A stretch of DNA of 36,197 nucleotides from an uncultured Methanosarcinales archaeon. Its GTDB lineage: Archaea > Nanobdellota > Nanobdellia > Woesearchaeales > GW2011-AR9. Of this stretch, positions 2,954 to 30,290 are shown piece by piece (position 1 is the stretch's first letter; the number at the start of each line of letters is the position of its first letter). The notes below the pieces were generated by a model. It ran no database searches and had not been told where the DNA came from. It saw only the letters and a program-made list of their open reading frames with translations. A program made the translations under genes and the position numbers. The stretch lies in assembly GCA_964360115.1 (NCBI GenBank), contig CAYHVV010000001.1:1-36197 (forward strand), given 5' to 3'.

Positions 2954-3337
2954 CTACTTTTTGGATTTGCTGTGCTTCAGCCACTTCTCAGATAACTTGA
3001 AAATAACAAAAAAAATGGGCAATAATAATATGAAGTGTATGCCTAAAAACAAAAATACGAAGTCTTTAGGATAGCCTTCAAGAAAATATCTTACCTGCAA
3101 TAAAACACTGACACATAAAGAAACCAATAAAGACCTGGTGAATAATTTTTTATTTCTGAATAATAAATAAGCGGTATATCCAATCACAGTTCCATAGATG
3201 ATTTTATTGATGAAATAGCGCGAGGGAACAGCATACTCCGAGCTCAATCCATGTATCAAATAGTCAAATCCGGCAAAGATCAGCACTACTGCAAGAATTA
3301 CAAAAAACAAAATGGAATAATAATATGTTTTATTCAT
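2954..3337 (-). CDS. Integral membrane protein (4 TM), unknown; coupled to the cupredoxin gene
   Basis: Hydrophobic helices throughout. Its ATG overlaps the upstream gene's TGA (ATGA on the minus strand at 3334-3337). Confidence 0.55.
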   Translation of the reverse strand: MNKTYYYSILFFVILAVVLIFAGFDYLIHGLSSEYAVPSRYFINKIIYGTVIGYTAYLLFRNKKLFTRSLLVSLCVSVLLQVRYFLEGYPKDFVFLFLGIHFILLLPIFFVIFKLSEKWLKHSKSKK

Positions 3338-3708
3338 TCTACTACCACTTTACCTTTCATTGAAGGATGTATACCACAATGATAATCATAAGTGCCGGGT
3401 GTATTAAAAACATGTACATACGTATTTCCCTTTGAAATAGAATCAGAATTGATTTCATCTCCGGTATCAGAAACAATAGTATGCGGCGCAGAGTCCCTAT
3501 TTGTCCAAACAACACTTACTCCTTTAGATATAGTTAAAGTATTTGGATTAAAAGCGAAACCGTTTATCTCGATATCCATCTTAATTCCCAGATCTCCAGT
3601 AGATGGAGCAGCAGTTGGTTGTACTGGTGTTTTTTGCGCATAACAGCCGCTAACCGCTATAACTATTATCAAAAATCCAATAATAAATGTTTTTTTAATG
3701 TTAATCAT
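3334..3708 (-). CDS. Blue-copper (cupredoxin) lipoprotein
   Basis: Lipobox signal MINIKKTFIIGFLIIVIAVSGC. Copper ligands are HTIV ... YDYHCGIHPSMKGKVVV (His, Cys-x2-His-x2-Met). A GGAG RBS lies directly upstream. Confidence 0.8.
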   Translation of the reverse strand: MINIKKTFIIGFLIIVIAVSGCYAQKTPVQPTAAPSTGDLGIKMDIEINGFAFNPNTLTISKGVSVVWTNRDSAPHTIVSDTGDEINSDSISKGNTYVHVFNTPGTYDYHCGIHPSMKGKVVVE

Positions 3709-5229: not shown

Positions 5230-6468
5230 ATGATGAGAGGTAAAACATCACTGGTGTTGTTAGTAATTCTATTATTTGTAATAAGTTGTGCTCCTCAAGA
5301 ACTTTCCGATGAAGAACTGGAAAAAAAGTTAAGCAATTTATCTGATCAAGAACTTCAAGAGATTGTTAATCAAGGAAATGAAAAGGGAGCAATTGCCGGC
5401 CAAGCTTATTACAACGTAAAGTATGGGGCTTCTAATCAAAAAGTCTATAATTCAGCGAAGAATATTATGAATAAAAAGATTCCTAAATCGGAAGTTCCTT
5501 TGCCAGAAAAAATAATTAATTCTCCACCAGTTTTAAACTTCATAGGCAACAAACAAATCCAGAAAGGGGATTTATTGACTTTTACAGTTAGTGCAACTGA
5601 CGCTAATAATGATCCCTTAGTTTACAGTGCCCAAGTATTGCCTCTTGGTGCTAGTTTTGATGTAACCCTTCAGACTTTTAACTGGATTCCAGCTTACAAT
5701 CAGGTCGGTATTAATCCGATTACGTTTAAAGTAAGTGATGGGAAAAAAGAGGATGAAGAAACAATTAACATTACCGTTTTGGATTCTGTTGTTTTAAATT
5801 CTTGTGTGCCTAAACCAAATGGTTTAGTCGGCTGGTGGGATGGAGATAATGTTAGCGGAACGACTGCCTATGATTTGGTTGGAACACACCATGGAACTTT
5901 AGCTAATGGAGCTAAAATAGGTAAAGGTATGGTGGGAAATGCTTTTGATTTTAGTGGTAATAACGGCTATGTTGGTGTTGCGCATCATACAGACTTTAAT
6001 ATAGATTATAGCTGGTTTATTGATGCTTGGATAATGCCTTTATCATACCCTGCTCCCGGAAAAAGAGGAGCCATATTGATGAAATGGGTTGATGGTGGAG
6101 AAAACAAGGCCTTGGAGATTGGTTCTGATGGAAAAGTGTTTGTTACACTTGTAAATGTGCAAAAACAATCTGCTCAAGTATATTCAACTACTAATCTATT
6201 AATGAATCGGTTTACTTTCGTAGCTGCAAGTTATAATGGAACAGCTTTAAACTTATATATTAATGGTCAGCTTGATAACAGTCTTCCTTTATCAATAGAT
6301 GTTTCAGACTCTTATGGAACTTTTTATATGGGAAATCATCCAACAAGAGGTTCAGAATTTGTTCCTTTTGATGGCTTGATTGACGAAGTTGAATGGAGTA
6401 AAGAAGTTCCAACAGAACAGAAAATACTGGAATTATTTTCTTCTACTAGTAAAGGGAAATGTAAATAA
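5230..6468 (+). CDS. Secreted lipoprotein: cadherin/Ig-like domain + LamG (concanavalin-like lectin) domain
   Basis: Lipobox LLFVISC. Ig-like module PPVLNFIGNKQIQKGDLLTFTVSATDANNDPLVYS. LamG pattern LVGWWDGDN...GNAFDFSGNNGYV...LYINGQLD...FDGLIDEVEW. Confidence 0.7.
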   Translation: MMRGKTSLVLLVILLFVISCAPQELSDEELEKKLSNLSDQELQEIVNQGNEKGAIAGQAYYNVKYGASNQKVYNSAKNIMNKKIPKSEVPLPEKIINSPPVLNFIGNKQIQKGDLLTFTVSATDANNDPLVYSAQVLPLGASFDVTLQTFNWIPAYNQVGINPITFKVSDGKKEDEETINITVLDSVVLNSCVPKPNGLVGWWDGDNVSGTTAYDLVGTHHGTLANGAKIGKGMVGNAFDFSGNNGYVGVAHHTDFNIDYSWFIDAWIMPLSYPAPGKRGAILMKWVDGGENKALEIGSDGKVFVTLVNVQKQSAQVYSTTNLLMNRFTFVAASYNGTALNLYINGQLDNSLPLSIDVSDSYGTFYMGNHPTRGSEFVPFDGLIDEVEWSKEVPTEQKILELFSSTSKGKCK

Positions 6469-13640: not shown

Positions 13641-13708
13641 GATTTTCTTTAAAATTTAAGTTCATTTTACGCAAATCTTTATATAGGTAGATTTCTTCAT
13701 TCAGATTG

Positions 13709-15133
13709 ATGTCAAAAAGAGGACAAGTAACGATTTTTATAATCATAGGTTTGCTAATCCTAATTATAACTGCAGGAATAATTTATGTTTCTAATACCAC
13801 AGTTACGGAAGAGCTTAAGATTGAAGAAACTAGCCCGTTTAAGGCAGACTTTTTTGTTTCTTTTGTAGACAACTGTTTAGAAAAAAGTGTCATTGATGGG
13901 ATGTACTTAGTTTTTTCACAGGGAGGTTATTATGAATTTACTCCGGAACCTGAACTGTTTGATCAGGTAGATGAACAAATAATTTCATTTCCCCCTAGTT
14001 TAGGAATTAATGTTTTTGCAGTAGAAGGTGAGAAAGAAGTAGAAAGTGAAAAAGAGGCTTTGCAAGTTCCAGTGTATTTCCAAAATACTAAAGCTAATCT
14101 GCCTGCCATTACTAGCATAGAAAGAGAAGTAGGAAAAGCTTCAAGAAGTTTTTTTCTTTCCTGCATAAATGGTTTTGAAAGTTTTAAAAAAGAAAATTAT
14201 AATATAGATGCCGGCAGCCCTGAGATTAAAGTTGCTTTTGCTGAAAAAATGTTAGTAGAGTTAAATTACCCCTTAAAAATAACTGGCGGCAGTAAAATCG
14301 CTGAACTTGAAACCTTTTCTACCGCCATTAACTTTAATTTTAAAGATAAATATGAAGTGATTAAAGAATATTTAAAAAAACAGGAAGAAGAACCAAATTA
14401 TTTTTTAATGGGTGAACTCTCTTCTTATGCTTATGAAAAAGATTTTGGTTTCGGATTTAAGCAGTTTGGCGATTCCGGAGCAGAAGTGTTAGTTGATTTT
14501 TCTTATGATGAAGAATTAAAACCGGAACCTCTGATTTACAGTTTCATTCTTTATTTTAATTGGACTGAACCAGTAGAGGAAGCCGAGTTATCTGGAGAAG
14601 AAGATGCAATCATCAATTTGGAAAGTATCCCTGCCTGGAACATCGATCAACCGGGCATTCATACTTACCAAGTGAAAGCTCTGGGAGAAGGTCTTACTTT
14701 CCATACTGATCCAAGAAGTCTGTCCATCGATCCTAAAACTGGACTAGTGACGATAGACACGAATGAATTCCCCAACGATGAATATTTATATTATGTTTTA
14801 GTTAGTGACCAATACGGACACGAAACTGTCGGGCCGATGTTCGTTAATGTAAATGTTAATGGCGGAACTTTGCCGATTATCAAGAAGATAGCCAAGCAGA
14901 CAGCAAAAATAGGAGAAGAATTTAATTATAAAATCGAAGTATTAAATGCCGGAAAAAACGTCGAGAATATTTTATCGTTCACTACTGATTCCTACTTGTT
15001 CGACCTGGATAAAAAAACGGGAGAGATCAAATTTATTCCTCAGCCAGAAGATAAAGGTCTTCATTCTGTCCGGGTAGATGTAGAGAACGAATTCGGGAAG
15101 ACTTGGCAGAGATGGGAATTGGAAATAAAATGA
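13709..15133 (+). CDS. Pilin-like (class III signal peptide) surface protein with C-terminal Ig-like domains, paralog of 17758-18774
   Basis: MSKRGQ|VTIFIIIGLLILIITAGIIYV has a short basic n-region, Gly-Gln, then a 20-aa hydrophobic stretch. The first 24 nt from the ATG are identical to those of 17758. Shared core FVDNCLEKSVIDGMYLVFSQGGYY. C-terminal Ig-like module LPIIKKIAKQTAKIGEEFNYKIEV. I prefer the ATG at 13709 over the track's TTG at 13706. Confidence 0.7.
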   Translation: MSKRGQVTIFIIIGLLILIITAGIIYVSNTTVTEELKIEETSPFKADFFVSFVDNCLEKSVIDGMYLVFSQGGYYEFTPEPELFDQVDEQIISFPPSLGINVFAVEGEKEVESEKEALQVPVYFQNTKANLPAITSIEREVGKASRSFFLSCINGFESFKKENYNIDAGSPEIKVAFAEKMLVELNYPLKITGGSKIAELETFSTAINFNFKDKYEVIKEYLKKQEEEPNYFLMGELSSYAYEKDFGFGFKQFGDSGAEVLVDFSYDEELKPEPLIYSFILYFNWTEPVEEAELSGEEDAIINLESIPAWNIDQPGIHTYQVKALGEGLTFHTDPRSLSIDPKTGLVTIDTNEFPNDEYLYYVLVSDQYGHETVGPMFVNVNVNGGTLPIIKKIAKQTAKIGEEFNYKIEVLNAGKNVENILSFTTDSYLFDLDKKTGEIKFIPQPEDKGLHSVRVDVENEFGKTWQRWELEIK

Positions 15134-17487
15134 TCAGCAGACAAAATAAACAAAATATTGGCACTAAAGATACCAAGATAAATTATTTTGTGTCTCTAAT
15201 GGTCTTGGTCTTAATGTGCACCTTTATTATTCTAGGTGTCTCCGCAGAAGATAATATCAATAATATTGATTGGAATAATCCGGAACAATTCAATGCTAAT
15301 TTTGAAAATGATCCCGTAGCTGCATTTTCTAACAATCCTGAAATGGTCTGGAACAAAATAGAAAATAATCCTCTCCTGCTTGCAGATAATGAACAAGTCA
15401 TGATCGCGGCATTCAACAATAATCAGGATAGGTTCTGGAGTCTTGTAAGTGTAAAAGGCAGCGATGTAATGAAAAACCAACCATTATGGGATTTCGCATT
15501 TAAGCAGGACCGGTTAAAAGCTGCAGGGGTAATAGAGAATAATCCGCACATCTTAGATGACTCTGTCCTTCTAGAAAAATTTGACTTAGAAATTTCTTCT
15601 CAGGAACTAAGAAACGGCAAAACCGGAGTAGAGATTATCAATGAAAATCCTAAAGCAAAGAAAACCTGGCTTGAAAAAAAATATGACTTGTTTACGGAAG
15701 ATATCATTGAAACAGGGGGAAAAATCAAGAACGCTGACATTCTCAAATACGATGGAAATAAAATCACTACCGGCGGCGCTGGCGGAGGAAAATTTACAGT
15801 TAAGGATGTCAAAGGAGCGAAAATCTTAACGGACGGTTCTTTGGAATTCAAAAATGCGGTAATCAAAGCTACCAAAAGTTTTTCTTTAAAAACAGATGAA
15901 TACGGAAATGATTATTATGGGATGGAAGCCGGAGAAGTTTATCTGGATGAGACGGTTAAGACATTCTCGTTAAAAATAAAAGATGGAAAAGTGTTCTCTT
16001 CAGGAAAAGGCTTGATAACTTATGATTGTTCTGATTGCGCTTTTGAAAAAGGGACAAGAATGGGCCAGTTTATCAAGTCAGAAGAGACTGGAGATCTGAT
16101 TACCGGTAAGTTTAAGCGCATAGGTCACTATCAGTTAGATTATACTTATCAAGCTGCAGTTGCCATGGAAGTAGATGGCGGAATATTTCAACAAGACGGT
16201 TCTAATCCGGAAGAGATGATCATTCTCGGAAAAACTAAATTGGTTAAGAAAGAAATAATTTTCGGCGATCCAAATAAAAATTATAAAACAACCCTGCCTG
16301 GAGACGGAACGATTATTAATATCGAAGGACCTAATACTGTTTATTATACCGAAAAAAAGAGCCGTGATGCTGCAACATTTTGTCCGAAAGATTTTGCTTG
16401 CATAGTTAATGTTCCCGGCCAGGAATACGGGGGAGCGTATCAGGAAAGATTAGCTTTCTTAAACGTGCAGGAAAATGATAAGATTTCTGTGAAAACTCCG
16501 GTTTATTATAATCGGGTTGAAGTTCTTGACCAAGTAGGCGGAGAAGTTACTTTTGCTTCCGTTAATAAAAGAAGCGGAACGGTCTTAGGAGAAATAAAAT
16601 CTGTTGCCGGAGAGAAACCAAAATTGGTTCGAGGCAGGCTGGAAGAAATAAAATCCGGAAGGTTTGATGTATTGGATAGTACGGATCCATATGAACCGCC
16701 GTTACTGCATCATTGGTCATCAAAAAAATTCCAGAAAGATCAGATTTATTTTATGAATAAGCGGGATCATTTTGCAACCTGCACTTACGGTGTTGATTGT
16801 GAAGAAGTGTTTGCAAAGGAATTCGGAAAAGTAATCGTACCAAAAGACAGAACTAAAAAGATTTCAACGACCATAATCGTTTCCGGCGATAACGCTAACA
16901 CTCCCTTAAGCATGTTAAGTTACTGCCAAAAAGAAGGGTGTTACATCGTCAACAGCAGAGATTCACCGCCGACAACTAAAAGCAGCAAGCTGGTTGTAAC
17001 CGGGCATCATAATGCCGGTTCTGATTATGTCTGGAGAGATCCTCCTGAAGTATTTAAAAAACATAACCCTATAGATAAACTTTACTTCAGCCCGGTTGAA
17101 GGAGGTTCACCTTTCGATTCGCTTCCTACGTCCAGCGCGGATGCGCAAAATCCGGTTGATTACGTTGCGTTCAGCGCCTGCAACACCGCAAACTCTTTTG
17201 ATTCACCAGATTTCGGGATTCTTCAGAAAAAATATCCTGACTTAAAAATCGTCCAGGGATGGAAAAATAAAGCGCCATTGCATGAAGCTATAAGTGATCT
17301 GCCTACAGGTATAGAAGAGATGGAAAAGCTGGCTCAGGGAAGCATAGTTAAAAACAAATACGGGGACAAAATAGGCGGTGAAAAATCTTGGTACATCAAA
17401 CAGGCCGATGGGACTTGGAAATGGACTAATGGCCGGGTAAATCCTCAACCCTTGGGTTCATCAAGTGAATTTTATGAAAATGTTTAG
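15130..17487 (+). CDS. Large secreted protein (785 aa): N-terminal region related to the giant protein, C-terminal caspase-fold-like module
   Basis: The ATG at 15130 overlaps the upstream TGA (ATGA), the same junction as at 18771. Signal peptide FVSLMVLVLMCTFIILGVSA|ED. The track's 15103 start would add 9 aa upstream of it. Confidence 0.7.
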   Translation: MISRQNKQNIGTKDTKINYFVSLMVLVLMCTFIILGVSAEDNINNIDWNNPEQFNANFENDPVAAFSNNPEMVWNKIENNPLLLADNEQVMIAAFNNNQDRFWSLVSVKGSDVMKNQPLWDFAFKQDRLKAAGVIENNPHILDDSVLLEKFDLEISSQELRNGKTGVEIINENPKAKKTWLEKKYDLFTEDIIETGGKIKNADILKYDGNKITTGGAGGGKFTVKDVKGAKILTDGSLEFKNAVIKATKSFSLKTDEYGNDYYGMEAGEVYLDETVKTFSLKIKDGKVFSSGKGLITYDCSDCAFEKGTRMGQFIKSEETGDLITGKFKRIGHYQLDYTYQAAVAMEVDGGIFQQDGSNPEEMIILGKTKLVKKEIIFGDPNKNYKTTLPGDGTIINIEGPNTVYYTEKKSRDAATFCPKDFACIVNVPGQEYGGAYQERLAFLNVQENDKISVKTPVYYNRVEVLDQVGGEVTFASVNKRSGTVLGEIKSVAGEKPKLVRGRLEEIKSGRFDVLDSTDPYEPPLLHHWSSKKFQKDQIYFMNKRDHFATCTYGVDCEEVFAKEFGKVIVPKDRTKKISTTIIVSGDNANTPLSMLSYCQKEGCYIVNSRDSPPTTKSSKLVVTGHHNAGSDYVWRDPPEVFKKHNPIDKLYFSPVEGGSPFDSLPTSSADAQNPVDYVAFSACNTANSFDSPDFGILQKKYPDLKIVQGWKNKAPLHEAISDLPTGIEEMEKLAQGSIVKNKYGDKIGGEKSWYIKQADGTWKWTNGRVNPQPLGSSSEFYENV
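16850..17300 (+). other. Candidate clan-CD (caspase/CHAT/CPD-like) cysteine protease module
   Basis: KLVVTGHHNAG (His codons at 17005-17010) is followed 58 residues later by DYVAFSACNTAN (Cys codon at 17179-17181). The His-then-Cys order, hydrophobic strands before each residue and small residues after each match the caspase-hemoglobinase fold pattern. Confidence 0.4.
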
Positions 17488-17757: not shown

Positions 17758-18774
17758 ATGTCAAAAAGAGGACAAGTAACAATCTTTTTAGTAGTGGGTA
17801 TAGTCATTTTACTCTTAGCAGCGTTGTTCTTTTACCTCTTCGGCCAGATGAAAGAAGCGCCGTTGCAAGTGGAAGCAAAGGAAACCGGAGAAGCGCCCAG
17901 TACGCGAGGAGCTTTACAAATATATGTTGAAAATTGTATCGAAAAAACCATTGATCCAGCAACATATTTACTAGCACTGCAGGGCGGGATAATTTATCCG
18001 GATGAAAGTAACAAAATTCTGCTAACTGATTATGGCGTTGTTAATTATGCCTGGTTGAATGGTGCGCAAGGAATTTCCCGCGCTAAAATGGAAGAAGATC
18101 TTGCAGCATATTTGGAAGAATATATTCCTTCGTGTTTAGGTAATTTTGAAACATTTGTCACTCAAAACATTTTAGTTGAATCGGATTTTAATAATGTTCA
18201 AGCAAAGATTTCTATTAAGGAAAATACCATCAATGCAAACTTAGATCTGCCGCTTAAAGTAAATCTAGCTGATGGAGATAAATTGGAATTAGATCATTTT
18301 TCAGCAATGGTGCGTAGCAGCTTAGGTAAAATGCTTACTTCTATTGAAAAATTAAAGTTTCCAATTATAACCCCTTCCGATTTGGTTAACCTTCCGTACC
18401 AATCAACGATATTCCCCTTTGATGAAGCAGTTACCATTTACTCACTAACTGAAGAGAATCAAGAAACTCCGTTATCATTTATGTTTGCAGTTCGTAATGA
18501 TCTTCCCGAGAATAAAGCTCCTTCATTGCATTATATTGCTGACAAGACTTTTCGCGTAGGAGACGTATGGAAAGAAGTATTGACTGCAGAAGACCCTACC
18601 AATGACTTGTTAGAATTTTCTTCTGATTCCAGTTTATTTCCCATTCAAAAAGATGGAACCATTGACGTACAGATAACTCAAGCAGGAGAATTTGAAGTTA
18701 CTTTTAGCGTTAATGATCATCAGGCCGGGGAAGATGAACAACTAGTTACAGTTACAGTGGTGAATAAAGAATGA
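17758..18774 (+). CDS. Pilin-like (class III signal peptide) surface protein, paralog of 13709-15133
   Basis: MSKRGQ|VTIFLVVGIVILLLAALFFYL. Shared core YVENCIEKTIDPATYLLALQGGIIY. C-terminal Ig-like module APSLHYIADKTFRVGDVWKEVLTAEDPTNDLLEFSSDS. Confidence 0.7.
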   Translation: MSKRGQVTIFLVVGIVILLLAALFFYLFGQMKEAPLQVEAKETGEAPSTRGALQIYVENCIEKTIDPATYLLALQGGIIYPDESNKILLTDYGVVNYAWLNGAQGISRAKMEEDLAAYLEEYIPSCLGNFETFVTQNILVESDFNNVQAKISIKENTINANLDLPLKVNLADGDKLELDHFSAMVRSSLGKMLTSIEKLKFPIITPSDLVNLPYQSTIFPFDEAVTIYSLTEENQETPLSFMFAVRNDLPENKAPSLHYIADKTFRVGDVWKEVLTAEDPTNDLLEFSSDSSLFPIQKDGTIDVQITQAGEFEVTFSVNDHQAGEDEQLVTVTVVNKE

Positions 18775-21700
18775 AACCAGTAACTAGAAAAACTATTGTT
18801 ATGGGGTGTGTTTTTCTCTTCCTAGCGAGTCTTTTTGCTGTTGCCCAGGAGTTTCCAGAAACGAATAACCCGCAGGGGCAATCTCCTTATGATCAATTTT
18901 CCAGCAATCCGAATTTATGGACCACGGATAATTTCAATAAGCTCAGTCCAGCAGATCAAGGACAATTTTTAGCAACTAATTACCGCGCAGATTTGGCGCT
19001 GGAATATTACAAAAATCAAAATAACGTCGGCTTGAATAAGATAGTAGATTTAAAATATTTTGCGGATAAAAATAACTTAGGGAAAAATCCAGCTGCTGAT
19101 GATAAATTTTATTCGAGCACTTATACCACTGCAACGCTGACGAGCTTGCGTGATTTCCTGCAGACAGGACTGGAACAGAAAGAGGCTGCTGCACAATATT
19201 TCACTCAAAAGTTCAATACTCCTTATACCTTTGAAGAAGTAGATGAAGATTTTCAATATGATGCTCAAGCAGGAACATTGACCAATGGTAAGAAAACTAT
19301 CAGTTTAAGTGAGTTCAAAGGTGATTCAGCTATCCAAGGGATTATTTCTATCGCAGACGGGTTTAAAATTATCCGGAAAGAAGAACAAGAAACACAGGAA
19401 ATTTCCGTGCAGGGTGATGGAGAGAGAAAAATTCAATATGATGCCCAGAAAGGAAATTTATTATTCAGAGACACACAGGGAAAAGAACAAAGCTTTGATA
19501 TCACTGCTGCAGAACCAGTTCATCTCGATTTTTATCAGGATGGAACTTTAGAGATAGAAGGGCCTGTTTCGGGAACAGTTAATCTTGATAACGAACATAA
19601 GTTCGCAGAATTCAGAAACAGACAGGGAAAATTAGTTATCTATTTCAACGGCGACTTTGAATCAAGAGATGCATTAATAAAAACAGCAAAACTCTACCTC
19701 AATGGACGATTTGAATATAATAAAGAAAAAAACAAAGTAGATGCTTACGATGTGATGAGCAATGATAGAAAAACTATCATTGTTGACAAAGATTCACGCG
19801 TAGGTGCAAAGACACAGGGACAGATTAAAGGAAAAAGTACTTTAGAGATATATCTTTCTAAAGTTTCCGAACACTCAGAATATTTTGTCAAACCTGGTGC
19901 AGCTGAAGAACAGCCGACCGTACAAGAAGTCATTGACAACTTACAGAAGGTTAGACCACCACAAGGAGACGTTGGAAATAACGCAGAAGTATTCATCAGG
20001 AAAAATGCTGAAACTGGAAAAACAATTATTACTTCAAAAGGAAAAGTAGAGATTGGTTTTTATGATGTTGTGAGCGGAAGCATTTCGCGTTCTGAAACTG
20101 AGCCGCACTTTATAGGTGTAAACGGAATTTCTGAGTTTGATTATTTAGGTGCGCCACAGAAACAAATAAACATTCGAGGAAAAGCAGTGTACTCGGATGA
20201 ACAGTACAGCCAGATTGATACACAACAAAATGGCGCTTCTCTCAAGATAATAAAGAATGATTTTGATGATGTTATCCATTCAGGATGTTTTGATTGTGAA
20301 ACTGGATCAACTGCGCTAAGCATAGGCAAACAAGTTGCGACGGCATTACAACAAGGAGATACGTTTACTGAACCTCAGTTTAAAACAATTAGCATCTCTG
20401 CAACAGTTAAAGATAAAGGCCTCGAATATGATTGGGATACGTTTCTTAACAATATGGGTTCTCTTGCAGGCTCAAAAACAGAGGGACAACAAATAATTTT
20501 AGGAAAAAATTTACTATTGAAAAGTATAACCTGTGAAGGTACAAAACAGTGTGATTTCATGCTGGCCAGAGATCAGCAATCAGGAGTAACTTCTGCTTTT
20601 TATGAAGTATACGACCCAGAGACAAATAAAGCAGGTAGAAGAGTTACTATTCCAACTAATATCGGTGAAACCATGGGTAAAGTGACCCTACTCACTTCTA
20701 CTGAGAATTTACAAAAACTACAACAGATTCAAACCTTAATTGAACAACGAAGATATGGGGAAGTTTCAAATTTATTAAAAAATGAACCGTTTGAAGAAGA
20801 TCCTGCTTTGCGCCAGCATCTTCTGAAAACTACGGGAATTGATCTACAACAATTAAATAATCCAGAATACACTCAAAAGCTCAATGAGATAAATAATTAT
20901 TATTCTGATGCACACACAAAAATAAAGACATTACGGGATAGTTATGGAATTAATCTAGATGAAAAAGGTGTGCCTGTATCGACAGAAGATCAGCAAAAAC
21001 TGAACGAAATCTTAAACAAAAAACGCAGTGGGAATGAAATAGCCGCATTTGACTTATACAGCGGAGCAAGAGTTGATTTAGCCCGAGCAGAGAATGAGCA
21101 AGTAGAAGCAATGCATCAATCCTGCGCTGGAAATGCGTATTGCCCCGTAGGAGATGAAGATGTCAAAGCCGCTCAGCAGAAAGTAATTAATGAAGTTCTA
21201 AGAAGAGAAAAATCTCCAGAGGGAATCCAATGGCGGCAAAACTTCGAACTGCAGAAGGAACAAAAAGAACAGCAGAAAGAAGTAGAACTATTAGCCGATA
21301 AATTAGCTGATGCTCAGAAATTAGGTAAAAAAAGAGATGCTACTGAACGTACCTTGACACGTGATCAAGCAGTTCTTGCTAAAACTATTCAAGATCTAAA
21401 TGAGCAGGAAGCAAAAGTACTGAGACTTGAACAAGAACGGAAAGAGAAGGAAAAAAGTATTCAGTTCAGAGATGTTTTGAATGTTGTATTTACGCTAGGC
21501 GAAGGAATTGAACAAGATTTAGATTTGCAGAGAAGTGCTGAAGAATTAGCAAAGAAAGAACTTACCACGCTGGAACTACAGGAATTTAGTTTACAAACTA
21601 GGATTAAAAACGGAAAGGAAGGCCTTAAAAAAATAAATGAAGATATCAACGATCTCACTCTCAATTTCAAAGAACCCACCTCTAAATTAGCATTATTAAG

Positions 21701-24700
21701 CGCCTCTGGCGATGATGAAACCGTCGGCATGATGATACATAATTCTGACTTGCCTTCGGCTAAGAAGGATGAATTATACCAAACTTACCTTGGTTCTGAT
21801 GTAAGCAAGCGCCTTAAAGAAATTAGCGCGGATCAGTCTGTTTCGAATTATGACGAAAAACAAAAACAAATGCTTGACATTATCGGCACCGGAAAAATGA
21901 CACTTAAACGAGCGCAAAATTATGCTGAGCAATACGGTGATATCGGCGGATCAAAAGTAGTTTTAGATCATGTTAAAGCTACTAGACCTGATTTGGTTGA
22001 TACACCAGAATGGAGAACGGCGCAAAATGCTTATGATGCGGCAGTCGATAACCAAATAGCAGAGTTACGACAGGTTGCAGAACAAAATCTTCGGGAAAAA
22101 ATGAAACTCAGTGATGGAACAGAGTCCAGCATTTTTGGTGATAAAAATTCTATTGCTGATTGGACTTTATCTAAGTTGGGTGCCGCGGCTGAAAGCGTGG
22201 GTTCAGGAATACGTTCTGCGAGTTTTAATGCTGTTGCCGGAACACTCGCAGTCGCGGGAGGAGCTTCTTATTTAGTCGGCGCGGAAGAAACAGGAACCAA
22301 TTTATTAGATACAGCGACGGCATTGCATACTTTTGATGATGTGAAGAAGCAGCAAGCAAATGCAGAATTAAGATTACTGGATCAGCAAATAAAATCCTAC
22401 GACAAAGTGCAGGAAATAATTGCAAATGCTCGTCTAAGTGGGAAAGAACCAGATACTGCACTTATCCAGAATGCATTTAGAACCCAAGCACCAATTACTA
22501 ATTTAGCAAAACAAATGGAAGGAAAGGAATTAACGGTAGATGACCAAGCGCAAGCAGCATTGTATAATGTTGAACAATCCGCATTGGTTGCTGGCGGAGA
22601 TGAATTAGTAAAGAATCAATATATCGCCATTCGAGAAGAGTTTGCTGGTAAAAGCGAGGTTGCAGATATAGCAAAAGAAAGAGTACTTAAAGCGGAACAA
22701 CGTGCAGAAGGTTCCTTCTTAACTAACGAACAACTTGGCCTTTATGGAGATGCGTTGATTGATGTTTCTGTTGATGTAACAAATATCATTCCCGGGGTTG
22801 TTTTTGTCAAAGCCGGCAAAGCAGTTGCAAAGTTTGCTGAAGTTACTAAGATTGCTGGAGCTGCCTCTAAAATAGGTCATGCGATAGATGTTGTTAAAGA
22901 TGCAGGTAAATTATTAACTGTATCAAAAGATGCGCGATTGGCTTTGAAAGCAGCAAAGGCAGAATTGTATGCGGCGCAAGTAACTAAAGGGTTAACTGCT
23001 GTAGAAAGAACTGCAGAGATTGCTCGAGCAGAACAGAAAATAAACTTGGCTAGGCAAGCTGTTGAAGGAGAATATCGTGCCAGTAAGGTTGGTCGAGTAA
23101 CAAATGTATTATCTACGCCTGTCTCTTCTGATCTTAGAGCCATAGAAAAATTAAAGTTGGCGACTCAAGATGAACAGTTCAAAGCGGCGCAACAGTTACA
23201 GGCCGCCAGAACAGCAGAAGAAGTGCAAACCGCTCAGGAGGCATATAAAGTTGCTACACAAAGAGTCAGTGATATTGAAAAAACAAAAGAAGCATATTCT
23301 TTAGCGGGTTCATATACAGGTGGTGTAACTTGGTTAGGAAAAGAACGCGCCGTTGGTCCTGGTGCAAAGAAAGCACAACAAGCTCTTGATGAATTTCAGC
23401 AAGCCAGAGAAGCGTATCATGTAGAAAAGATTGCTTTTGGCGCAGATAAAGTATCAGCTGAAACTGTCGAGAATATTATCAAGACTGCAAAAGCAGCAGA
23501 AGAGGCATCATTTGAGAACAGGCTTTCCAATACCATTAAGGGCGCAATCGGTGCGCAGCGAGTTGAAAGAAATGTAGAAAAACTCAAAGCAGCTAAAGTT
23601 GGACTTTCATTTACTGATGATGGTAAACTTGTTGCAGAAGGGTTACAAACCGGCTCTGAAGAAGCCAAATTGGTTGAACAAACTAATAAATTGCTGGATG
23701 AAGATACGGTCATGCGGCATCTTGTTGGCGAAGATGCTAAACGTATCGCAACTCCAGAAGATATCCCGCAACCGCCGCGGAAATTATCCGAACAAGAATT
23801 TGATGAGTTAGATTTACTTGACAAAGAACTTGAAGCGCGAGGAGCTACCTATCATCTTAATGATCAAGACCAAGTAGAGATAAGTATTAATGATGTTGTA
23901 ACTGAAAATGTTGAAGATTTAGAATTATTAAAACAAAAAGCGCAGAGAGCACAACAATTATTTGATGAGGCCGATAAGGAAGATTTGATCAGGCAAACAC
24001 GAGCAAGGATAAATGCAGAAAATGTACTTTCTGATAATGATTTACAGGATGTTGCTGCTCAAGTAAAGAAAGATCTAACTGCTAAAACAAAAGGAGAAGT
24101 TGACGCTGCAGTTATCCCAGAAGTTGCTGGTGAAAAAGCTGCAGAACTGCCTAAACCTCTTGCTGCTAGAGAAACTAGAATAGCAACAGGTGATGATATC
24201 CCGAGACCGGAAGCGATTGAAGAAGCAATTGATTCCAGAACAGCAGGAACCTATTCCATACTCAAGACAGTTCAGCAAGAAGGAAAAGCGCCAACAGTTC
24301 GCGGGTTAGACCATCTCCCAGCGGATATAACTGCAGAAGAAAACGCTCAGCGAGTCTTGGCAAGTGTACCTGAATCAGGCACTACTGTGAGATTAGAAAC
24401 TCTCAATGGTAATATCGAAGAAGGCAAAGTTCTTGCAGCAAATGATAATGGCATAGTCTTAGAGCAAGCAGGAAGACAAAAAACTATTCCCGCTGATAAA
24501 GTAGATACAGTCACGGTTACTGAAAAAGCACCGATAGAAAAGCAAGGAGTTTCTGATGTGGTCGAACCCTGCACTCTCGCTGCCGCTGCGATATACGGAT
24601 TGGCTCCCTGTAATCCTAGTGAAGCTACTAAACTGCCTGCAGAAATTTCCGGCGAGAGAGAAATTGCAGAAAAAGCACCTTCCGTTTCTGAAGAAGAGCA

Positions 24701-27700
24701 ATTTGTACCCGAAGTATCCACCGTCGTAGAAAGACCAGCAAATCTGCGAAGTGAAGGAGCAACTGTCGTTCAACTTCCTGGACGTTCTATAGCAGCAGAG
24801 TCTGTTGAAGTTCCAGCTCAATTAGATATAACTCCTGCCACTATAGATGATATAGACATAATTGTTAATGATCAGATACCACGTACAAAATTAGCTGAGA
24901 GTGAAGCAGCAGCCCTGACTGCAAATAGAGAATATTTTATCGGTCGGGGTGGAGAAGCAATAGTAATAACTGATCCAGAAAATCCAAATTTTGTATATAA
25001 AATAAAACACACCACTAGTCCTGAAGTTGCAGAAACAGCAAATTCTTTCCCTGATGCTAGAACATATTTAGATGCTCTTGGTGAGCATGGCGCAAAAGTA
25101 GATTGGGCAAATACTAATACTATGCGCATCGAGAATTTAAAAGCTTCTGGACACCAACAATTAGGAGACGCGATATTTAACAGCTTGTCACCGGAACAAA
25201 GAGCATTGTATGTAGCGGATGGAACTACTGCTGCGCAAAGACGGATTTTACGAGAACAAGCATTTAGACAAATGACTGAGGAAGAATTTCAAGCGTTTAA
25301 TCAGGCCTTTGATGAGTTTGCTGAAACAGCAACCAAACAGGGAATAAAAATTGGCGATACAGGAATAGATAATATTTGGGTAGGACCGGAAGGATTTACC
25401 GACGGAGTAAAGTTTAAAATTTCTGATGCTGGGGTTGCTCATCAAGTTACTGATCGCAATGCTCTGCGGCAATTTTATCAGCGCAGGAAAGCAGAATTAA
25501 TATCTGGTGACTCTGGCTATTTAGTCACGGGCGAAGATGCGATAGATCTGTATGAAGCTCGCGGATTAATCACTAAAGAAGAAGTGATTAAACTACGTAA
25601 TGAATTACCTGTTCCGGAAACGTTGCTTAAAGAAGTTGAAGAGATAGAATTGCCTTCTTGTTCTATCGGCGGTTCTTTTGTCGGACAAGCTGCAGCAGCG
25701 CCTTGTTTGCCAACTGGCGCGCCAAAAACAATAGATGATTTAGTTGAAGGAGAAAAATTCAGAGTGCGTTCAAAAAGCGGCAATTCCTATGCCGGCAGTT
25801 ATCTTCATACTGAAGGGGGTTTATTAAATTTCGAAACTGGAGAGGAGACAAAAAGATTCTTTGGATTACTGGGCACTAAAAAAGAAACAGGCACGTTGCG
25901 TGTTGAGCTGTTAGATCAAAGCAGTATTATCCGAGAAGGCGATCAAATAAGGATAACTTCCAATAGCGGTATTCCTTACGTCGGCAGATATGCCGGTGAA
26001 GATGCAGAATTCTTCCGGATTAAGTATCCAAATGGAGACACTCTGCGTTTTAAAAAATCTGACTTTAATCTGGATACTATCATCGGAGAAGGAGACGCAG
26101 TCACGCTCAGGAGCAAAAGCGGCAATAGTTATTCCGGACAGTATGTTTCGGAAGCTGACGGATACATCGTTCTCAGAGACGAAAGTGGAAATGCTTTCCG
26201 CTTGAGAAGCGAGATGGTGGATAAAACTTCCATCAAGACACTTGGAATGGAAGAACAATCCATCAAAAATAAAAATAAAGCTTTATTTGCAGATAAGGAA
26301 GAATTTCCTTCACGCCAAAGTAAAGATGTACATGCAAAAGATTTACCTTTTGAAAATGAACCTGCCCCGCGTAGAGTAATATATTCTCTTGAAGACAGGA
26401 TAATAGCAGAAGAACAAGGCCTTATTTTTGAAAATGTACCCTCTTCTAAACTTCCGCCAGGAACCTACACTTATGTTATATTAGAAGACGGGTCAATGGT
26501 GTTTGGAAAAGTAAGCAGTAATTTGGAATTTGGAGTTAAGCATGTCCATCTGGCTAACGGAAGGCCGGTCAAAGTTGCCGGAGAAGTAGCAATTGACGGA
26601 ACTGGAAAATATGTGTTTAATTTACGCAGCGGAACTTTTACTTACCCCCTACTTGACAGTAAATTTGAAAAGTTTAAACATCTGGGAAATGTGAAGGCAC
26701 GGGAAGAAGTTGCTAAATTTGAAAGAACACTGCAAAGAAATATGGACGAGTCTTTCAGTAATTATTTTGGCAGGAAAGGAGAGTTCACAAAAGATCCGGT
26801 TTTACCTAATCAGCCCTCACCGCTGGAAGAATTAGTAAACATTTGCGTAAGAGGCGCAGAGCTTAATATTCTCTCCTGCCAAGCTCCAGATATAAAAGTT
26901 TTAGTTGAGCAGAGAAGAGCAGCGATGGTTTCAGATGCAGTCAATCCTTGCAACATTGCTGCTGCTGCGATTCAGGGATTAGCTCCTTGTGTAACTAGTA
27001 CGGCTGAAATAATGCCTGAGGAACCTGCATTCGTAATTGAAACATCTGGTGTTGTAGAAAGGCCAGTAGAACTTCGTAATGAATTGCCTCTAACCGAAGA
27101 GGTAGTTCCTTCTTCAGAAAAGATTATTTCTGAATGGAGAATGAAAGCAAGAGAAGCACTTAATTCTCAAACGCCAATTGAAATCGGTGAAACTAAAGTT
27201 GTTTTTACTAGAACAGTTGATGACGAAGTTGAAAAGATTGAAGGAGTTCTAACCGCGAAGTATGATGCTAATAATTATTTTTCAATGCAGATAGTCGATT
27301 CTGAAACAGGAGATATTGTTGCTACTCACTACTACCATGTTCGTGGAAAAGAAATTTCAATATTAGAAACGAAGGTTAATCCTAACTATCAAGGAGCAGG
27401 AATGAATCAACAGATGTTCCAGTATATGTCTGATTTACATCCAGAAGCGGAAGTTATGGATACGCTAGTAGCCGGAACTAATTTAGAGGTGTATAAAGCA
27501 TCATTGCAGAAGGGATTAAGTCCTCTTGATGCAATAAAACAAACTCCTGCTTACAAAATAAGAAAAAATGCCGGTTGGGGAGAAATTGATCTTAAACAGT
27601 CAGTACTGCCCAAGTTAGAAGAACTCGAAGAAAGATCGCTTACTTTGATTTCTAAGAGGGAAAATCCGACGGGTGTTCTTCCTCCAGAATTTAAACGCAA

Positions 27701-30290: not shown

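What the first reader, a model, noticed from the sequence alone, without database searches (positions are those of the whole stretch)
18771..30290. Giant 3,839-aa secreted protein built like a multi-effector toxin: stalk, coiled coil, then a string of unrelated enzyme-like cargo modules
Seen in sequence: an 11.5-kb ORF with no stops in an AT-rich genome and a Sec signal peptide. Residues 1 to about 640 are beta-rich. Residues about 640-1900 are Ala/Glu/Lys/Gln-rich and helical. Discrete modules then follow. (1) A kinase-like module with GRGGEA, VYKIK, IGDTGIDN and ISDAG. (2) Three SH3-like repeats of about 55 aa (25731-26243) plus a beta-rich module (26461-26650). (3) A GNAT-like module with YQGAGMNQQMF. 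(4) A second, degenerate kinase-like module with LGEGTVGIVY...AFKTAK. (5) An unassigned 200-aa C-terminus. Established knowledge: a secretion signal, a long stalk and several unrelated enzymatic domains separated by a repeated linker is the design of bacterial MARTX and polymorphic toxins. Inference: this could be an archaeal counterpart, delivering kinases and an acetyltransferase to a host or competitor cell. I am not aware of a described archaeal system of this design.
Basis: partly seen in the sequence, partly recalled or inferred. Interest (0 to 1): 0.9.

Follow-up and report, generated by a model that had tools for sequence, protein, structure and literature searches.

The report
Giant modular effector-array protein of Nanoarchaeia
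This is a real 3,839-residue exported protein of a tiny symbiotic (DPANN) archaeon, from an undescribed family that strings swappable kinase-like, acetyltransferase-like and unknown modules behind a conserved head and stalk, which makes it a strong candidate tool for manipulating a host cell.

Summary
The 11.5-kb ORF is real and intact, and collinear homologues in independent assemblies cover almost every junction. It starts with a Sec-type signal peptide. A conserved 800-residue head follows; its AlphaFold model is confident (pLDDT 86.6) but has no convincing PDB match. After a long helix-rich stalk come five modules, separated by Cys-bracketed Ala/Gly-rich loops.

Fold claims tested:
- Both kinase-like modules hit only protein kinases in PDB profile searches (best E 3.7e-4 and 3e-5).
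- The GNAT-like module folds as a GNAT (Foldseek E 4.5e-6).
- The SH3 fold and the coiled coil remain unverified.

The head defines a family of about 90 clusters, many of 2,000-7,600 aa, in Nanoarchaeia MAGs. The gene always follows a pilin-like gene at a syntenic site. Flanking genes are 77-91% identical, but the head is only 30-33% identical (66% in one relative). Modules are shuffled between members, and the high-identity blocks shared with one relative start at the loop-coding linkers. Other members carry HopA1, RelA/SpoT, GGDEF, phosphoesterase, Pkinase and GNAT domains.

Enzymes that need ATP, GTP or acetyl-CoA on an exported protein argue for action inside another cell. Delivery is inferred, not shown. 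It is not a MARTX or classical polymorphic toxin: it has no RTX repeats, no CPD and no immunity gene.

The parts
17758..18774 (+). Partner gene: a 338-aa protein with a pilin-like N-terminus (MSKRGQ/VTIFLVVGIVILLL) and an Ig-like C-terminus. Its stop overlaps the giant gene's ATG (ATGA).
   Evidence: ATGA overlap. An ortholog (55-67% id) lies directly upstream of the giant gene in all 8 GTDB loci. Pfam gives only weak hits: DUF7287 E 0.005, Tad 0.077, Big_9 0.018. The pilin-like reading is by eye.
18771..30290 (+). Giant ORF, 3,839 aa.
   Evidence: Collinear homologues in independent assemblies cover nearly all junctions.
18771..18845 (+). Sec-type signal peptide (aa 1-25, AVA/QE).
   Evidence: Read from the sequence. 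Strongest hydrophobic peak of the protein, KD 2.17. An equivalent N-terminus is present in P0004.
18846..20699 (+). Family-defining head (aa 26-643): a helical bundle plus two beta-rich domains, with conserved Cys pairs (506/509, 588/594).
   Evidence: AF2 model pLDDT 86.6, pTM 0.68. No convincing PDB or BFVD match. Profile search finds 91 cluster representatives, 53 at E<1e-30.
20700..24395 (+). Helix-rich stalk (aa 644-1875). It contains two moderately hydrophobic Gly/Ala-rich segments (aa 1150-1172 and 1326-1350).
   Evidence: AF2 predicts long helices for aa 644-839. Composition is 52% AEKQLR with low Pro. Hydropathy peaks. 27% identical and collinear with P0004. Coiled coil not verified.
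24396..24545 (+). Single small beta-repeat unit at the end of the stalk (aa 1876-1925), of the same type as the three repeats in module 2.
   Evidence: NCBIfam Lepto_7_Nterm E 7.8e-4. Aligned with the module 2 repeats.
24570..24611 (+). Cys loop 1: CTLAAAAIYGLAPC.
   Evidence: Part of the 62-nt direct repeat family D1. Fits the family consensus.
24612..25658 (+). Module 1: protein-kinase-like domain (core aa 2030-2262; GRGGEA, VYKIK, IGDTGIDN, ISDAG).
   Evidence: Alignments A1 and A9 keep G-loop, K, D-x4-N and D-x-G. PDB profile hits are all kinases, best DAPK3 E 3.7e-4. No structure was predicted.
25659..25706 (+). Cys loop 2: CSIGGSFVGQAAAAPC.
   Evidence: The 92%-identity block shared with L005 starts 61 nt upstream, in the linker.
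25731..26243 (+). Module 2a: three ~55-aa beta repeats ('SH3-like'; fold untested).
   Evidence: Only weak profile hits. 92-95% identical to P0001/L005.
26373..26879 (+). Module 2b: unknown domain with an invariant GVKHxHLAxGR core and a terminal Cys pair.
   Evidence: Alignment A5. No Pfam or PDB hit. Also found outside giant proteins, for example in a 302-aa secreted protein, P0102.
26949..26990 (+). Cys loop 3: CNIAAAAIQGLAPC.
26991..27935 (+). Module 3: GNAT-fold domain (core aa 2782-2965; YQGAGMN motif-A-like, N-x3-Y motif-B-like), followed by a 'GxYY..WKQ(K/Q)RxFWFDK' cap.
   Evidence: AF2 pLDDT 76.9. Foldseek top 50 hits are all GNATs, best E 4.5e-6. Weak Pfam Acetyltransf_CG (E 0.029) and NCBIfam rimI (E 0.087) hits.
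27936..27977 (+). Cys loop 4: CVIAGGAIQGLAPC.
   Evidence: The 85.5%-identity block shared with L005 starts at 27920, inside the 62-nt repeat copy 27916-27977.
28218..28730 (+). Module 4a: second protein-kinase-like domain. G-x-G, K, E, D and D are kept; the catalytic-loop Asn is absent.
   Evidence: Alignment A7. PDB profile gives 487 hits, all kinases, best CDPK2 E 3e-5. Pfam Pkinase E 0.081 here, and E 0.0021 in the homologous module of P0008.
28758..29621 (+). Module 4b: two ~60-aa helical repeats plus two copies of the 'FEIAGKxYY..WKQKR' cap motif.
   Evidence: Read from the sequence. Direct repeat D7. Homologues found in the family.
29622..29672 (+). Cys loop 5: CSLAAGAIIGGAIAGPC.
   Evidence: Hydropathy peak KD 1.62.
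29673..30287 (+). Module 5: unknown C-terminal domain with an invariant THHRHALG motif.
   Evidence: Alignment A6. It ends the protein in 4 of the 5 other members that carry it (63-97% id). Also occurs in small proteins of Pacearchaeota and others. No Pfam or PDB hit.

Best explanation
The gene encodes a member of an undescribed family of giant, Sec-exported, modular proteins of Nanoarchaeia (DPANN archaea).

Shown:
- The layout is a signal peptide, then a conserved ~800-aa head of unmatched fold, then a helix-rich stalk.
- Five interchangeable modules follow: two with protein-kinase sequence signatures, one GNAT fold, a beta-repeat plus unknown domain, and an unknown C-terminal domain. They are separated by a family-specific linker: an acidic VSDxVxP lead-in and a 13-17-residue Ala/Gly-rich hydrophobic loop closed by two cysteines.
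- The gene sits in a conserved two-gene cassette behind a pilin-like gene.
- It is far more divergent than its flanking genes.
- It exchanges modules between lineages, with breakpoints at the loop-coding linkers.

Inferred:
- After export, the head holds the protein on the symbiont surface, possibly docked to the pilin-like partner.
- The stalk projects the module array toward the host.
- The modules act inside the host cytoplasm as effectors, because that is the only place outside the producer where ATP, GTP and acetyl-CoA are available.
- The Cys loops serve as junctions for recombination. They may also serve as membrane-interacting or processing sites that allow entry or release of the modules.
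For: The gene is real and exported:
-.
- The conserved Cys pairs are typical of extracytoplasmic proteins.

Folds:
- Module 1 and module 4a are kinase-like.
- Module 3 is a GNAT fold.

Family:
- 91 cluster representatives, many 2,000-7,647 aa.
- 8 loci in Nanoarchaeia/Nanoarchaeota MAGs.
- Every module recurs elsewhere in a different order and combination.

Cargo in other members is effector-like and cofactor-dependent:
- HopA1, E 2.5e-18, directly after the first loop of P0007.
- RelA_SpoT, E 1e-13, at the C-terminus of P0025.
- GGDEF E 4.4e-11, Metallophos E 7.8e-16, Pkinase E 5e-9, GNAT.

Hypervariable locus:
- CorA and L15e are 85-90% identical, the partner gene 55-67%, and the head 30-33% (66% in L001).

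Mosaic with L005:
- Two blocks of 92% and 85.5% nucleotide identity begin at the loop 2 and loop 4 linkers. The rest of the gene cannot be aligned.

Loops:
- 64 distinct loops in the family share one consensus.
- Apart from the signal peptide and one stalk segment (aa 1326-1350), they are the most hydrophobic stretches of the protein.

Established knowledge: kinases, GNATs, RelA/SpoT and GGDEF enzymes need nucleotide or CoA substrates that are essentially absent outside cells. This is the same logic used for MARTX and type III effectors.
Against: - No translocation, processing or secretion-to-host machinery was recognised. Nothing shows that any module leaves the producer's surface.
- Module 4a lacks the catalytic-loop Asn, and the GNAT motif A ends in an invariant Asn instead of Gly/Ala. 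Some modules may therefore be pseudoenzymes or binding domains.
- Module 5 is the best-conserved module rather than the most variable. That fits an anchor or tip better than a toxin.
- Modules 2b and 5 and the head have no assigned function.
- The kinase evidence for module 1 is a sequence profile with marginal E-values, not a structure.
- The host is unknown.
- Extracellular kinases do exist (Fam20C, CotH), so dependence on cytoplasmic cofactors is suggestive, not decisive.
Confidence: 0.55

Rival explanations
1. It is a cell-surface adhesin or scaffold of the symbiont. The protein stays on the producer's envelope, and the enzyme-like modules are binding domains, pseudoenzymes or surface-acting enzymes. 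Nothing is delivered into another cell. Hypervariability then reflects host-range adaptation or phage/immune evasion of a surface antigen.
For: - No translocation apparatus or releasing protease was found.
- Module 4a lacks the catalytic Asn, and the GNAT motif A is atypical.
- Module 5 is conserved and terminal, like a tip-binding domain.
- The beta-repeat units and the pilin-like partner fit an adhesion apparatus.
- Giant surface proteins are known in DPANN (PMC10266531).
Against: - Catalytic residues are conserved in module 1 (K, D, N, D) and largely in module 4a (K, E, D, D) across divergent members.
- Family members carry Pfam-level RelA_SpoT, GGDEF, Pkinase, GNAT, Metallophos and HopA1 domains. 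These have no obvious role outside a cytoplasm.
- Adhesins are usually built of Ig, cadherin or beta-helix repeats, and none were found here.
Confidence: 0.27
2. It is a contact-dependent polymorphic toxin aimed at competing relatives, like CdiA or Rhs. A protective immunity protein would be encoded nearby.
For: - Conserved N-terminal region with variable C-terminal modules, and recombination at a conserved pre-module motif analogous to VENN.
- RelA/SpoT-type C-terminal domains in relatives resemble known toxin domains.
- Archaeal polymorphic toxins have been predicted (PMC3482391, PMC6393860).
Against: - There is no same-strand gene downstream. The next gene is a convergent metallophosphoesterase 30 nt away, and it is conserved as ordinary flank in L005.
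- No orphan toxin/immunity cassettes are in the window.
- Several enzymatic modules sit in series instead of one terminal toxin.
- The terminal module is the most conserved one.
Confidence: 0.1
3. It is an assembly artefact: a chimeric join of several ordinary genes into one frame.
For: - GC rises from 0.36-0.39 in the first third of the gene to 0.40-0.43 in the rest.
- The exact protein is not in the gene-position index.
- The reads could not be inspected.
Against: - An 11.5-kb open frame at 37% GC cannot arise by chance.
- Intact ORFs of 2,832-3,790 aa occupy the same syntenic slot in independent MAGs.
- Collinear homologues span the junctions: head-stalk-loop 1 (P0004), module 1-loop 2-module 2-loop 3 (P0002), module 3-loop 4 (L004), and loop 4-module 4-loop 5-module 5-downstream flank (L005).
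Confidence: 0.03

Closest known systems
MARTX (multifunctional autoprocessing repeats-in-toxin) toxins of Vibrio and relatives
   Same: A very large secreted protein that carries an array of unrelated, interchangeable effector domains. Those domains need host-cytoplasmic cofactors, and effector content differs between strains through recombination.
   Different: - MARTX toxins have glycine-rich RTX-type repeats at both ends. They are exported by a dedicated type I system and are cut by an internal InsP6-activated cysteine protease domain.
- None of these was found here.
- This protein instead has a Sec signal, a novel head, a helical stalk and Cys-bracketed hydrophobic linkers. It is archaeal.
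Bacterial polymorphic toxin systems (CdiA, Rhs/YD, MafB, LXG; Zhang et al. 2012, PMC3482391)
   Same: A conserved N-terminal trafficking/stalk part with variable C-terminal enzymatic domains. Cassette exchange happens at a short conserved pre-domain motif. Here that motif is the loop linker, which is analogous to VENN.
   Different: - There is no adjacent immunity gene and no orphan cassettes.
- There are five modules in series rather than one terminal toxin.
- None of the known trafficking, repeat, pre-toxin or releasing-peptidase domains is detected.
SPEARE / giant surface proteins of Nanohaloarchaeota (PMC10266531)
   Same: A giant (several thousand aa), Sec-exported, lineage-variable protein of a DPANN episymbiont, proposed to mediate host interaction.
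   Different: - Those proteins are built of Ig/fibronectin-like arrays, with membrane anchoring and a VirB4/TraG-like ATPase, and they have a neighbouring secretion ATPase.
- This family has none of these.
- This family carries kinase, GNAT and other enzyme modules separated by Cys loops.
Giant virulence-factor-like proteins transferred between partners in the Chlorochromatium consortium (bioRxiv 10.64898/2026.03.19.712371, abstract seen)
   Same: Very large proteins made by an epibiont and reported to be transferred into the partner cell of a prokaryote-prokaryote symbiosis.
   Different: It is a bacterial system. No sequence relationship was tested or is claimed. I read only the abstract.

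Membership tests
MARTX toxins | N- and C-terminal glycine-rich RTX-type repeat regions | tested here: not met
   There is no Pfam or NCBIfam hit of any kind on the whole protein or on separate pieces. No tandem Gly-rich repeats show up among the direct repeats.
MARTX toxins | Internal cysteine protease domain (CPD, Peptidase_C80) for autoprocessing | tested here: not met
   No Peptidase_C80 or other peptidase hit at E<=10 on the separate modules.
MARTX toxins | Type I secretion (C-terminal signal, rtxBDE/rtxC neighbours) | tested here: not met
   The protein has an N-terminal Sec-type signal peptide. Its neighbours are CorA, L15e, pilin-like proteins and a phosphoesterase.
MARTX toxins | Array of heterologous, exchangeable effector domains | tested here: met
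   There are five modules, and the module sets differ between homologues. Family cargo includes HopA1, RelA_SpoT, GGDEF, Pkinase, GNAT and Metallophos.
Polymorphic toxin systems | Immunity gene immediately downstream of the toxin gene (often followed by orphan cassettes) | tested here: not met
   The stop codon is at 30288-30290, and the next ORF (30321-30926) is on the opposite strand. It is a Metallophos protein that is conserved as flank in L005.
Polymorphic toxin systems | Conserved N-terminal/central region with C-terminal domains varying between strains by recombination | tested here: met
   The mosaic blocks start at the loop linkers.
Polymorphic toxin systems | Known trafficking, repeat or pre-toxin domains (RHS/YD, FHA, PT-VENN, PT-HINT, LXG, DUF4157 and others) | tested here: not met
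   No such Pfam family was detected.
Eukaryotic-like protein kinase superfamily (module 1) | Gly-rich loop, beta3 Lys, catalytic-loop D-x4-N, Mg-binding D-x-G | tested here: met
   GRGGEA, VYKIK, IGDTGIDN and ISDAG are present. The residues are conserved across the module family. PDB profile hits are exclusively kinases, best E 3.7e-4.
Eukaryotic-like protein kinase superfamily (module 1) | Bilobal kinase fold | not tested
Eukaryotic-like protein kinase superfamily (module 4a) | Gly-rich loop, beta3 Lys, alphaC Glu, catalytic Asp and Asn, DFG Asp | tested here: inconclusive
   G45, G47, K67, E92, D166 and D192 are invariant. The catalytic-loop Asn is replaced (D-L-Q-A-M-V), with an invariant Gln at +2. 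PDB profile best E 3e-5, all hits kinases, covering the N-lobe only. It could be an atypical kinase or a pseudokinase.
GNAT acetyltransferase superfamily (module 3) | GNAT fold (beta1-alpha1-alpha2-beta2-4-alpha3-beta5-alpha4-beta6) | tested here: met
   AF2 model with core pLDDT 86-97. The top 50 Foldseek hits are all GNATs, E 4.5e-6 to 5e-4, probability 1.0, target TM 0.45-0.54.
GNAT acetyltransferase superfamily (module 3) | Acetyl-CoA pyrophosphate-binding motif A (Q/R-x-x-G-x-G/A) | tested here: inconclusive
   The family consensus is Y-[QRE]-x-x-G-x-N, with an invariant Asn where Gly/Ala is expected. The motif-B-like N-x3-Y is invariant. Acetyl-CoA binding cannot be tested with these tools.
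SPEARE-type giant proteins of Nanohaloarchaeota | Ig/fibronectin-like domain arrays, membrane anchor, VirB4/TraG-like ATPase domain | tested here: not met
   There are no Ig, FN3 or AAA/VirB4 Pfam hits. No transmembrane-grade hydrophobic segment exists other than the signal peptide.

The most novel reading that the evidence does not exclude
This would be the first effector-delivery device of DPANN archaea. It would be a self-contained, Sec-exported 'effector train'. Its Cys-stapled, fusion-peptide-like Ala/Gly loops, possibly together with the two hydrophobic stalk segments, would insert into the host membrane and/or be cut. That would carry kinases, an acetyltransferase and, in relatives, alarmone or c-di-GMP synthetases and HopA1-like domains into the host cytoplasm. 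The loop-coding linkers would double as recombination junctions that let lineages reshuffle their effector repertoire.
Probability: 0.3. Interest if true: 0.9.

Novelty: new variant of a known kind. Interest (0 to 1): 0.75.

Why it matters
How DPANN episymbionts, with their tiny genomes, control or exploit their hosts is an open question, and almost no candidate effectors are known. This family offers several concrete, testable things:
- a syntenic, hypervariable locus;
- a set of enzyme modules with predictable chemistry (phosphorylation, acetylation, nucleotide second messengers);
- a conserved head of apparently new fold;
- a short, peculiar linker motif that marks module borders and recombination breakpoints.

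If the modules act in host cells, this would extend the multi-effector toxin design from bacteria to archaea. It would also give DPANN biology its first effector catalogue. If they do not, it is still a new family of giant archaeal surface proteins with an unusual way of diversifying.

Tried and rejected
- **Whole-protein scans.** Pfam and NCBIfam on the whole protein gave nothing. Module-wise scans gave only sub-threshold hints.
- **Whole-protein homology search.** It timed out. The exact protein is absent from the gene-position index.
- **PDB sequence-profile searches.** Module 3, module 2b and module 5 gave nothing useful. A GNAT assignment for module 3 therefore needed the structure model.
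- **Module 2b versus module 5.** Both have an H-x-H motif after a beta hairpin, so I tested whether they are related. hhalign probability was 0.4%, so this was rejected.
- **RelE/ParE reading of a 100-aa module in P0004.** I suspected this by eye. There is no Pfam support, so it was dropped.
- **The ~540-aa 'NLPAEN..' module.** It replaces module 1 in P0001, P0003 and P0004 and has no Pfam hit.
- **Foldseek of the head model.** Against PDB and BFVD it gave only low-probability hits with TM ~0.1 (WD40/sialidase propellers, Rhs, Chorein-N/LPD-3). I do not interpret these.
- **The 794-aa upstream protein.** It is not a paralogue of the head.
- **Pilin assignment of the partner gene.** It could not be confirmed by profiles.
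- **SH3 fold of the repeats.** Not established.
- **Heptad periodicity.** It does not support a long canonical coiled coil.
- **Apparent stand-alone module 2b protein (P0095).** It turned out to be a fragment of a frameshifted giant gene.
- **Lipobox reading of the loop ends.** L-A-[GSA]-C occurs in some loops, but about 45% have Pro at -1 and all have a conserved first Cys. I considered this reading and left it open.
Full report
**1. The observation**

The window holds a single ORF from 18771 to 30290 on the + strand, 3,839 codons, with no stop. GC is about 37%, so roughly 6.6% of random codons would be stops. By my own arithmetic, an open frame of this length has a chance probability of about 1e-114.

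The N-terminus is MKPVTRKT / IVMGCVFLFLASLFAVA / QE. It has the charged-hydrophobic-AxA layout of a Sec signal peptide. It is the only strongly hydrophobic stretch of the protein (Kyte-Doolittle 2.17), and there is no C-terminal membrane anchor.

Five hydrophobic loops bracketed by cysteines lie at aa 1934-1947, 2297-2312, 2727-2740, 3056-3069 and 3618-3634. They cut the C-terminal half into five modules.

The organism is an archaeon. Ribosomal protein L15e and CorA lie just upstream. The closest genomes are Nanoarchaeia/Nanoarchaeota MAGs, which belong to DPANN.

**2. What the pieces are**

The whole protein matches nothing in Pfam or NCBIfam. Scanned separately, the modules gave only sub-threshold hints. 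Module 3 hit a GNAT family (E 0.029) and module 4a hit Pkinase (E 0.081).

*Module 1.* I built family alignments of each module from homologues. For module 1, the eight-sequence alignment keeps a G-x-G-x-E-G loop, an invariant beta3 Lys (VYKIK) and a hinge-like YY[IV]AE. The four-sequence alignment shows invariant D-x4-N and D-x-G. A profile of it hits 206 PDB sequences at E<=1. All are protein kinases, aligned over the catalytic loop and DFG, and the best is DAPK3 at E 3.7e-4.

*Module 4a.* A nine-sequence profile hits 487 PDB sequences at E<=10, again all kinases, best E 3e-5, aligned over the N-lobe. G-x-G, Lys, Glu, the catalytic Asp and the DFG-position Asp are invariant. The catalytic-loop Asn is missing.

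*Module 3.* It gave nothing by sequence against the PDB. An AlphaFold model from six sequences was good (pLDDT 76.9, pTM 0.72, core 86-97). All of the top 50 Foldseek hits were GNAT acetyltransferases, including nourseothricin acetyltransferase, GCN5, RimI, NatD and the GNAT domain of ICL2. E-values ran from 4.5e-6 to 5e-4, with probability 1.0. Motif A is unusual (Q-x-x-G-x-N, with an invariant Asn). A motif-B-like N-x3-Y is invariant.

*Repeats.* The three 55-aa repeats are real. Their fold was not established: there are only weak hits to MORN, Sm/Rpp29 and a Leptospira N-terminal domain.

*Unassigned modules.* Module 2b (invariant GVKHxHLAxGR) and module 5 (invariant THHRHALG) remain unassigned. 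They are not related to each other. Both also occur in small proteins outside the giant family, including a 302-aa secreted protein and a Pacearchaeota protein.

*Head.* The head (aa 27-840) was modelled from 23 sequences with high confidence (pLDDT 86.6, pTM 0.68). The model has a helical bundle, two beta-rich domains, then long helices from about aa 644. Foldseek found no convincing relative in the PDB or among viral models (best probability 0.28-0.38, TM ~0.1).

*Stalk.* It is Ala/Glu/Lys/Gln-rich and Pro-poor. Helix or heptad periodicity exceeds shuffles only up to about aa 1000, so 'coiled coil' is unverified. Two moderately hydrophobic Gly/Ala-rich segments lie in the middle of the stalk (aa 1150-1172 and 1326-1350).

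**3. The family**

A word-indexed search with the C-terminal half found only four homologues. An exhaustive profile search with the head found 91 cluster representatives. Of these, 53 score below 1e-30, and many are 2,000-7,647 aa long.

Every module of the window protein recurs in other members, but in different order, number and company. Kinase-1-type modules occur up to three times in one protein.

The linker is family-specific. I collected 64 distinct loops. Their consensus is [GL]-V-S-D-x-V-[EDN]-P-C-x-[ILV]-A-[AG]-[AG]-A-I-x-G-L-A-P-C, and most are 13-17 residues long.

Pfam recognises further cargo in other members:
- HopA1 effector family: E 2.5e-18, directly after the first loop of P0007.
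- RelA_SpoT: E 1e-13, at the C-terminus of P0025. The EhQhRT motif is also present at the C-terminus of three more members.
- GGDEF: E 4.4e-11.
- Metallophos: E 7.8e-16.
- Pkinase: E 5e-9.
- Acetyltransf_1: at its threshold.

**4. The locus**

In all eight GTDB loci, the gene follows a 338-aa protein with a pilin-like N-terminus (MSKRGQ/VTIF...). That gene in turn follows L15e and CorA. In the window, the partner's stop codon overlaps the giant gene's start codon (ATGA).

Identity to the window falls sharply from the flanks to the gene. CorA and L15e are 85-90% identical in most loci, the partner is 55-67%, and the head is only 30-33% (66% in L001).

At the nucleotide level, the window and L005 share only two blocks inside the gene. 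One is 92% identical (25598-26233) and starts in the linker just before loop 2. The other is 85.5% identical (27920-31370) and starts inside the 62-nt loop-coding repeat at loop 4 (27916-27977). It runs through the end of the gene into the downstream flank. The intervening and upstream parts cannot be aligned. So the gene is a mosaic, and two breakpoints sit at loop linkers.

No gene follows on the same strand. A convergent phosphoesterase gene starts 30 nt after the stop codon.

**5. Is it an artefact?**

Reads could not be inspected. However, intact ORFs of 2,832-3,790 aa occupy the same slot in independent MAGs. Collinear homologues also span the junctions:
- head-stalk-loop 1 (P0004);
- module 1-loop 2-module 2-loop 3 (P0002);
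- module 3-loop 4 (L004);
- loop 4 to the downstream flank (L005).

The GC step inside the gene fits acquired modules or amino-acid composition. I rate chimerism at about 3%.

**6. How it most likely works**

*Shown.* The protein has an export signal, extracytoplasmic-type conserved Cys pairs, a conserved head plus stalk, a swappable module array, and a hypervariable syntenic cassette with a pilin-like partner.

*Inferred.* The head holds the protein at the symbiont surface, perhaps on the partner protein, and the stalk projects the modules outward. Kinase, GNAT, RelA/SpoT and GGDEF chemistry needs ATP, GTP or acetyl-CoA. These are essentially unavailable outside cells (established knowledge). 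The modules therefore most plausibly act inside the host cell, as effectors do in MARTX and type III systems.

*The loops.* They are demonstrably module borders and recombination junctions. Apart from the signal peptide and one stalk segment (aa 1326-1350), they are also the most hydrophobic parts of the protein. They resemble Ala/Gly-rich fusion peptides stapled by a disulfide. A role in membrane interaction or processing is possible but untested. Some loop ends resemble lipoboxes (L-A-[GSA]-C), and the genome uses lipobox signals (three in the window). However, Pro at -1 in about 45% of loops argues against a simple lipoprotein reading.

*Main rival.* The main rival is a non-delivering surface adhesin or scaffold with pseudoenzyme modules. 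A kin-directed polymorphic toxin is less likely, because there is no immunity gene and the terminal module is the most conserved one.

**7. Comparison with known systems**

It works like a MARTX or polymorphic toxin in design, but it fails their membership tests. It has no RTX repeats, CPD or type I secretion. It has no immunity gene and no known trafficking or pre-toxin domains.

Giant surface proteins of Nanohaloarchaeota (SPEARE; PMC10266531) share the biological setting. They are built differently: Ig arrays, a membrane anchor and a VirB4-like ATPase.

I found no paper on this family.

**8. Verdict**

This is a real and unusual gene. The 'coiled coil' and 'SH3' labels are unverified.

The multi-effector reading is the best-supported one (about 0.55), but it rests on inference about where such enzymes can work.

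- Novelty: a new variant of a known design, in a new family with an unmatched head fold and a new linker motif.
- Interest: 0.75.

Noticed in passing
window 13706-15133 and 15103-17487: A second pair lies between L15e and the partner gene. It consists of a 475-aa paralogue of the pilin-like partner (25% id, same MSKRGQVTIF N-terminus) followed by a 794-aa secreted protein of unknown function. This extra pair is present only here and in L008. The 794-aa protein is not a paralogue of the giant protein's head.
   Followed up: partly
window 31043-31762, 31803-32462, 34741-36171(-): Three predicted secreted proteins start with lipobox-type signal peptides (..FLLSC, ..LLTSC, ..LLSSC). This suggests lipoprotein-type anchoring is used in this archaeon. 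One is a PLD-like protein, and one is Cys-rich with a transglutaminase-like domain.
   Followed up: partly
window 434-970 and 973-1398: An HTH plus minimal nucleotidyltransferase (MNT) protein is followed immediately by a 141-aa ORF with no Pfam hit. This may be the MNT-HEPN pair described as DPANN-typical in PMC6393860. The second ORF was not tested for HEPN.
   Followed up: no
window 18771-30290: GC content steps up inside the gene. It is 0.36-0.39 for 18.8-22 kb and 0.40-0.43 for 22-30 kb, against flanks of 0.33-0.38.
   Followed up: no
head model of window 18849-21290 (aa 27-840): The low-probability Foldseek hits include Chorein-N/VPS13-like viral proteins and the LPD-3 bridge-like lipid-transfer complex (probability <=0.38, TM ~0.1). 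This would be intriguing for lipid-auxotrophic DPANN, but it is far below evidential level.
   Followed up: no
L009 1545-10761: A run of about 17 small same-strand ORFs without Pfam hits surrounds P0095 (module 2b plus a Cys loop). It looks like a giant family gene broken by frameshifts in a long-read metagenome assembly.
   Followed up: partly
window 27769-27820 and 29473-29524 (also aa ~3493-3530): A short 'GxxYY..G.WKQ(K/Q)R.FWFDK..D' motif recurs at the C-terminal end of modules 3 and 4b, just before Cys loops, and also in homologues. It may be a small cap or hairpin element that belongs to the linker system.
   Followed up: no
L002, L004, L005, L006 record titles: Several MAGs that carry this Nanoarchaeia-type locus are labelled 'uncultured Methanosarcinales archaeon' in their records. 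They share L15e, CorA and the partner gene at 55-90% identity with Nanoarchaeota MAGs. The cause is probably mislabelling or mis-binning. It could conceivably hint at the host.
   Followed up: no
window 5230-6468: A 412-aa protein with Ig-like (He_PIG/Big_9) and LamG/concanavalin-like lectin domains. It is another candidate surface or host-binding protein, with weakly similar copies in L003 and L007.
   Followed up: no
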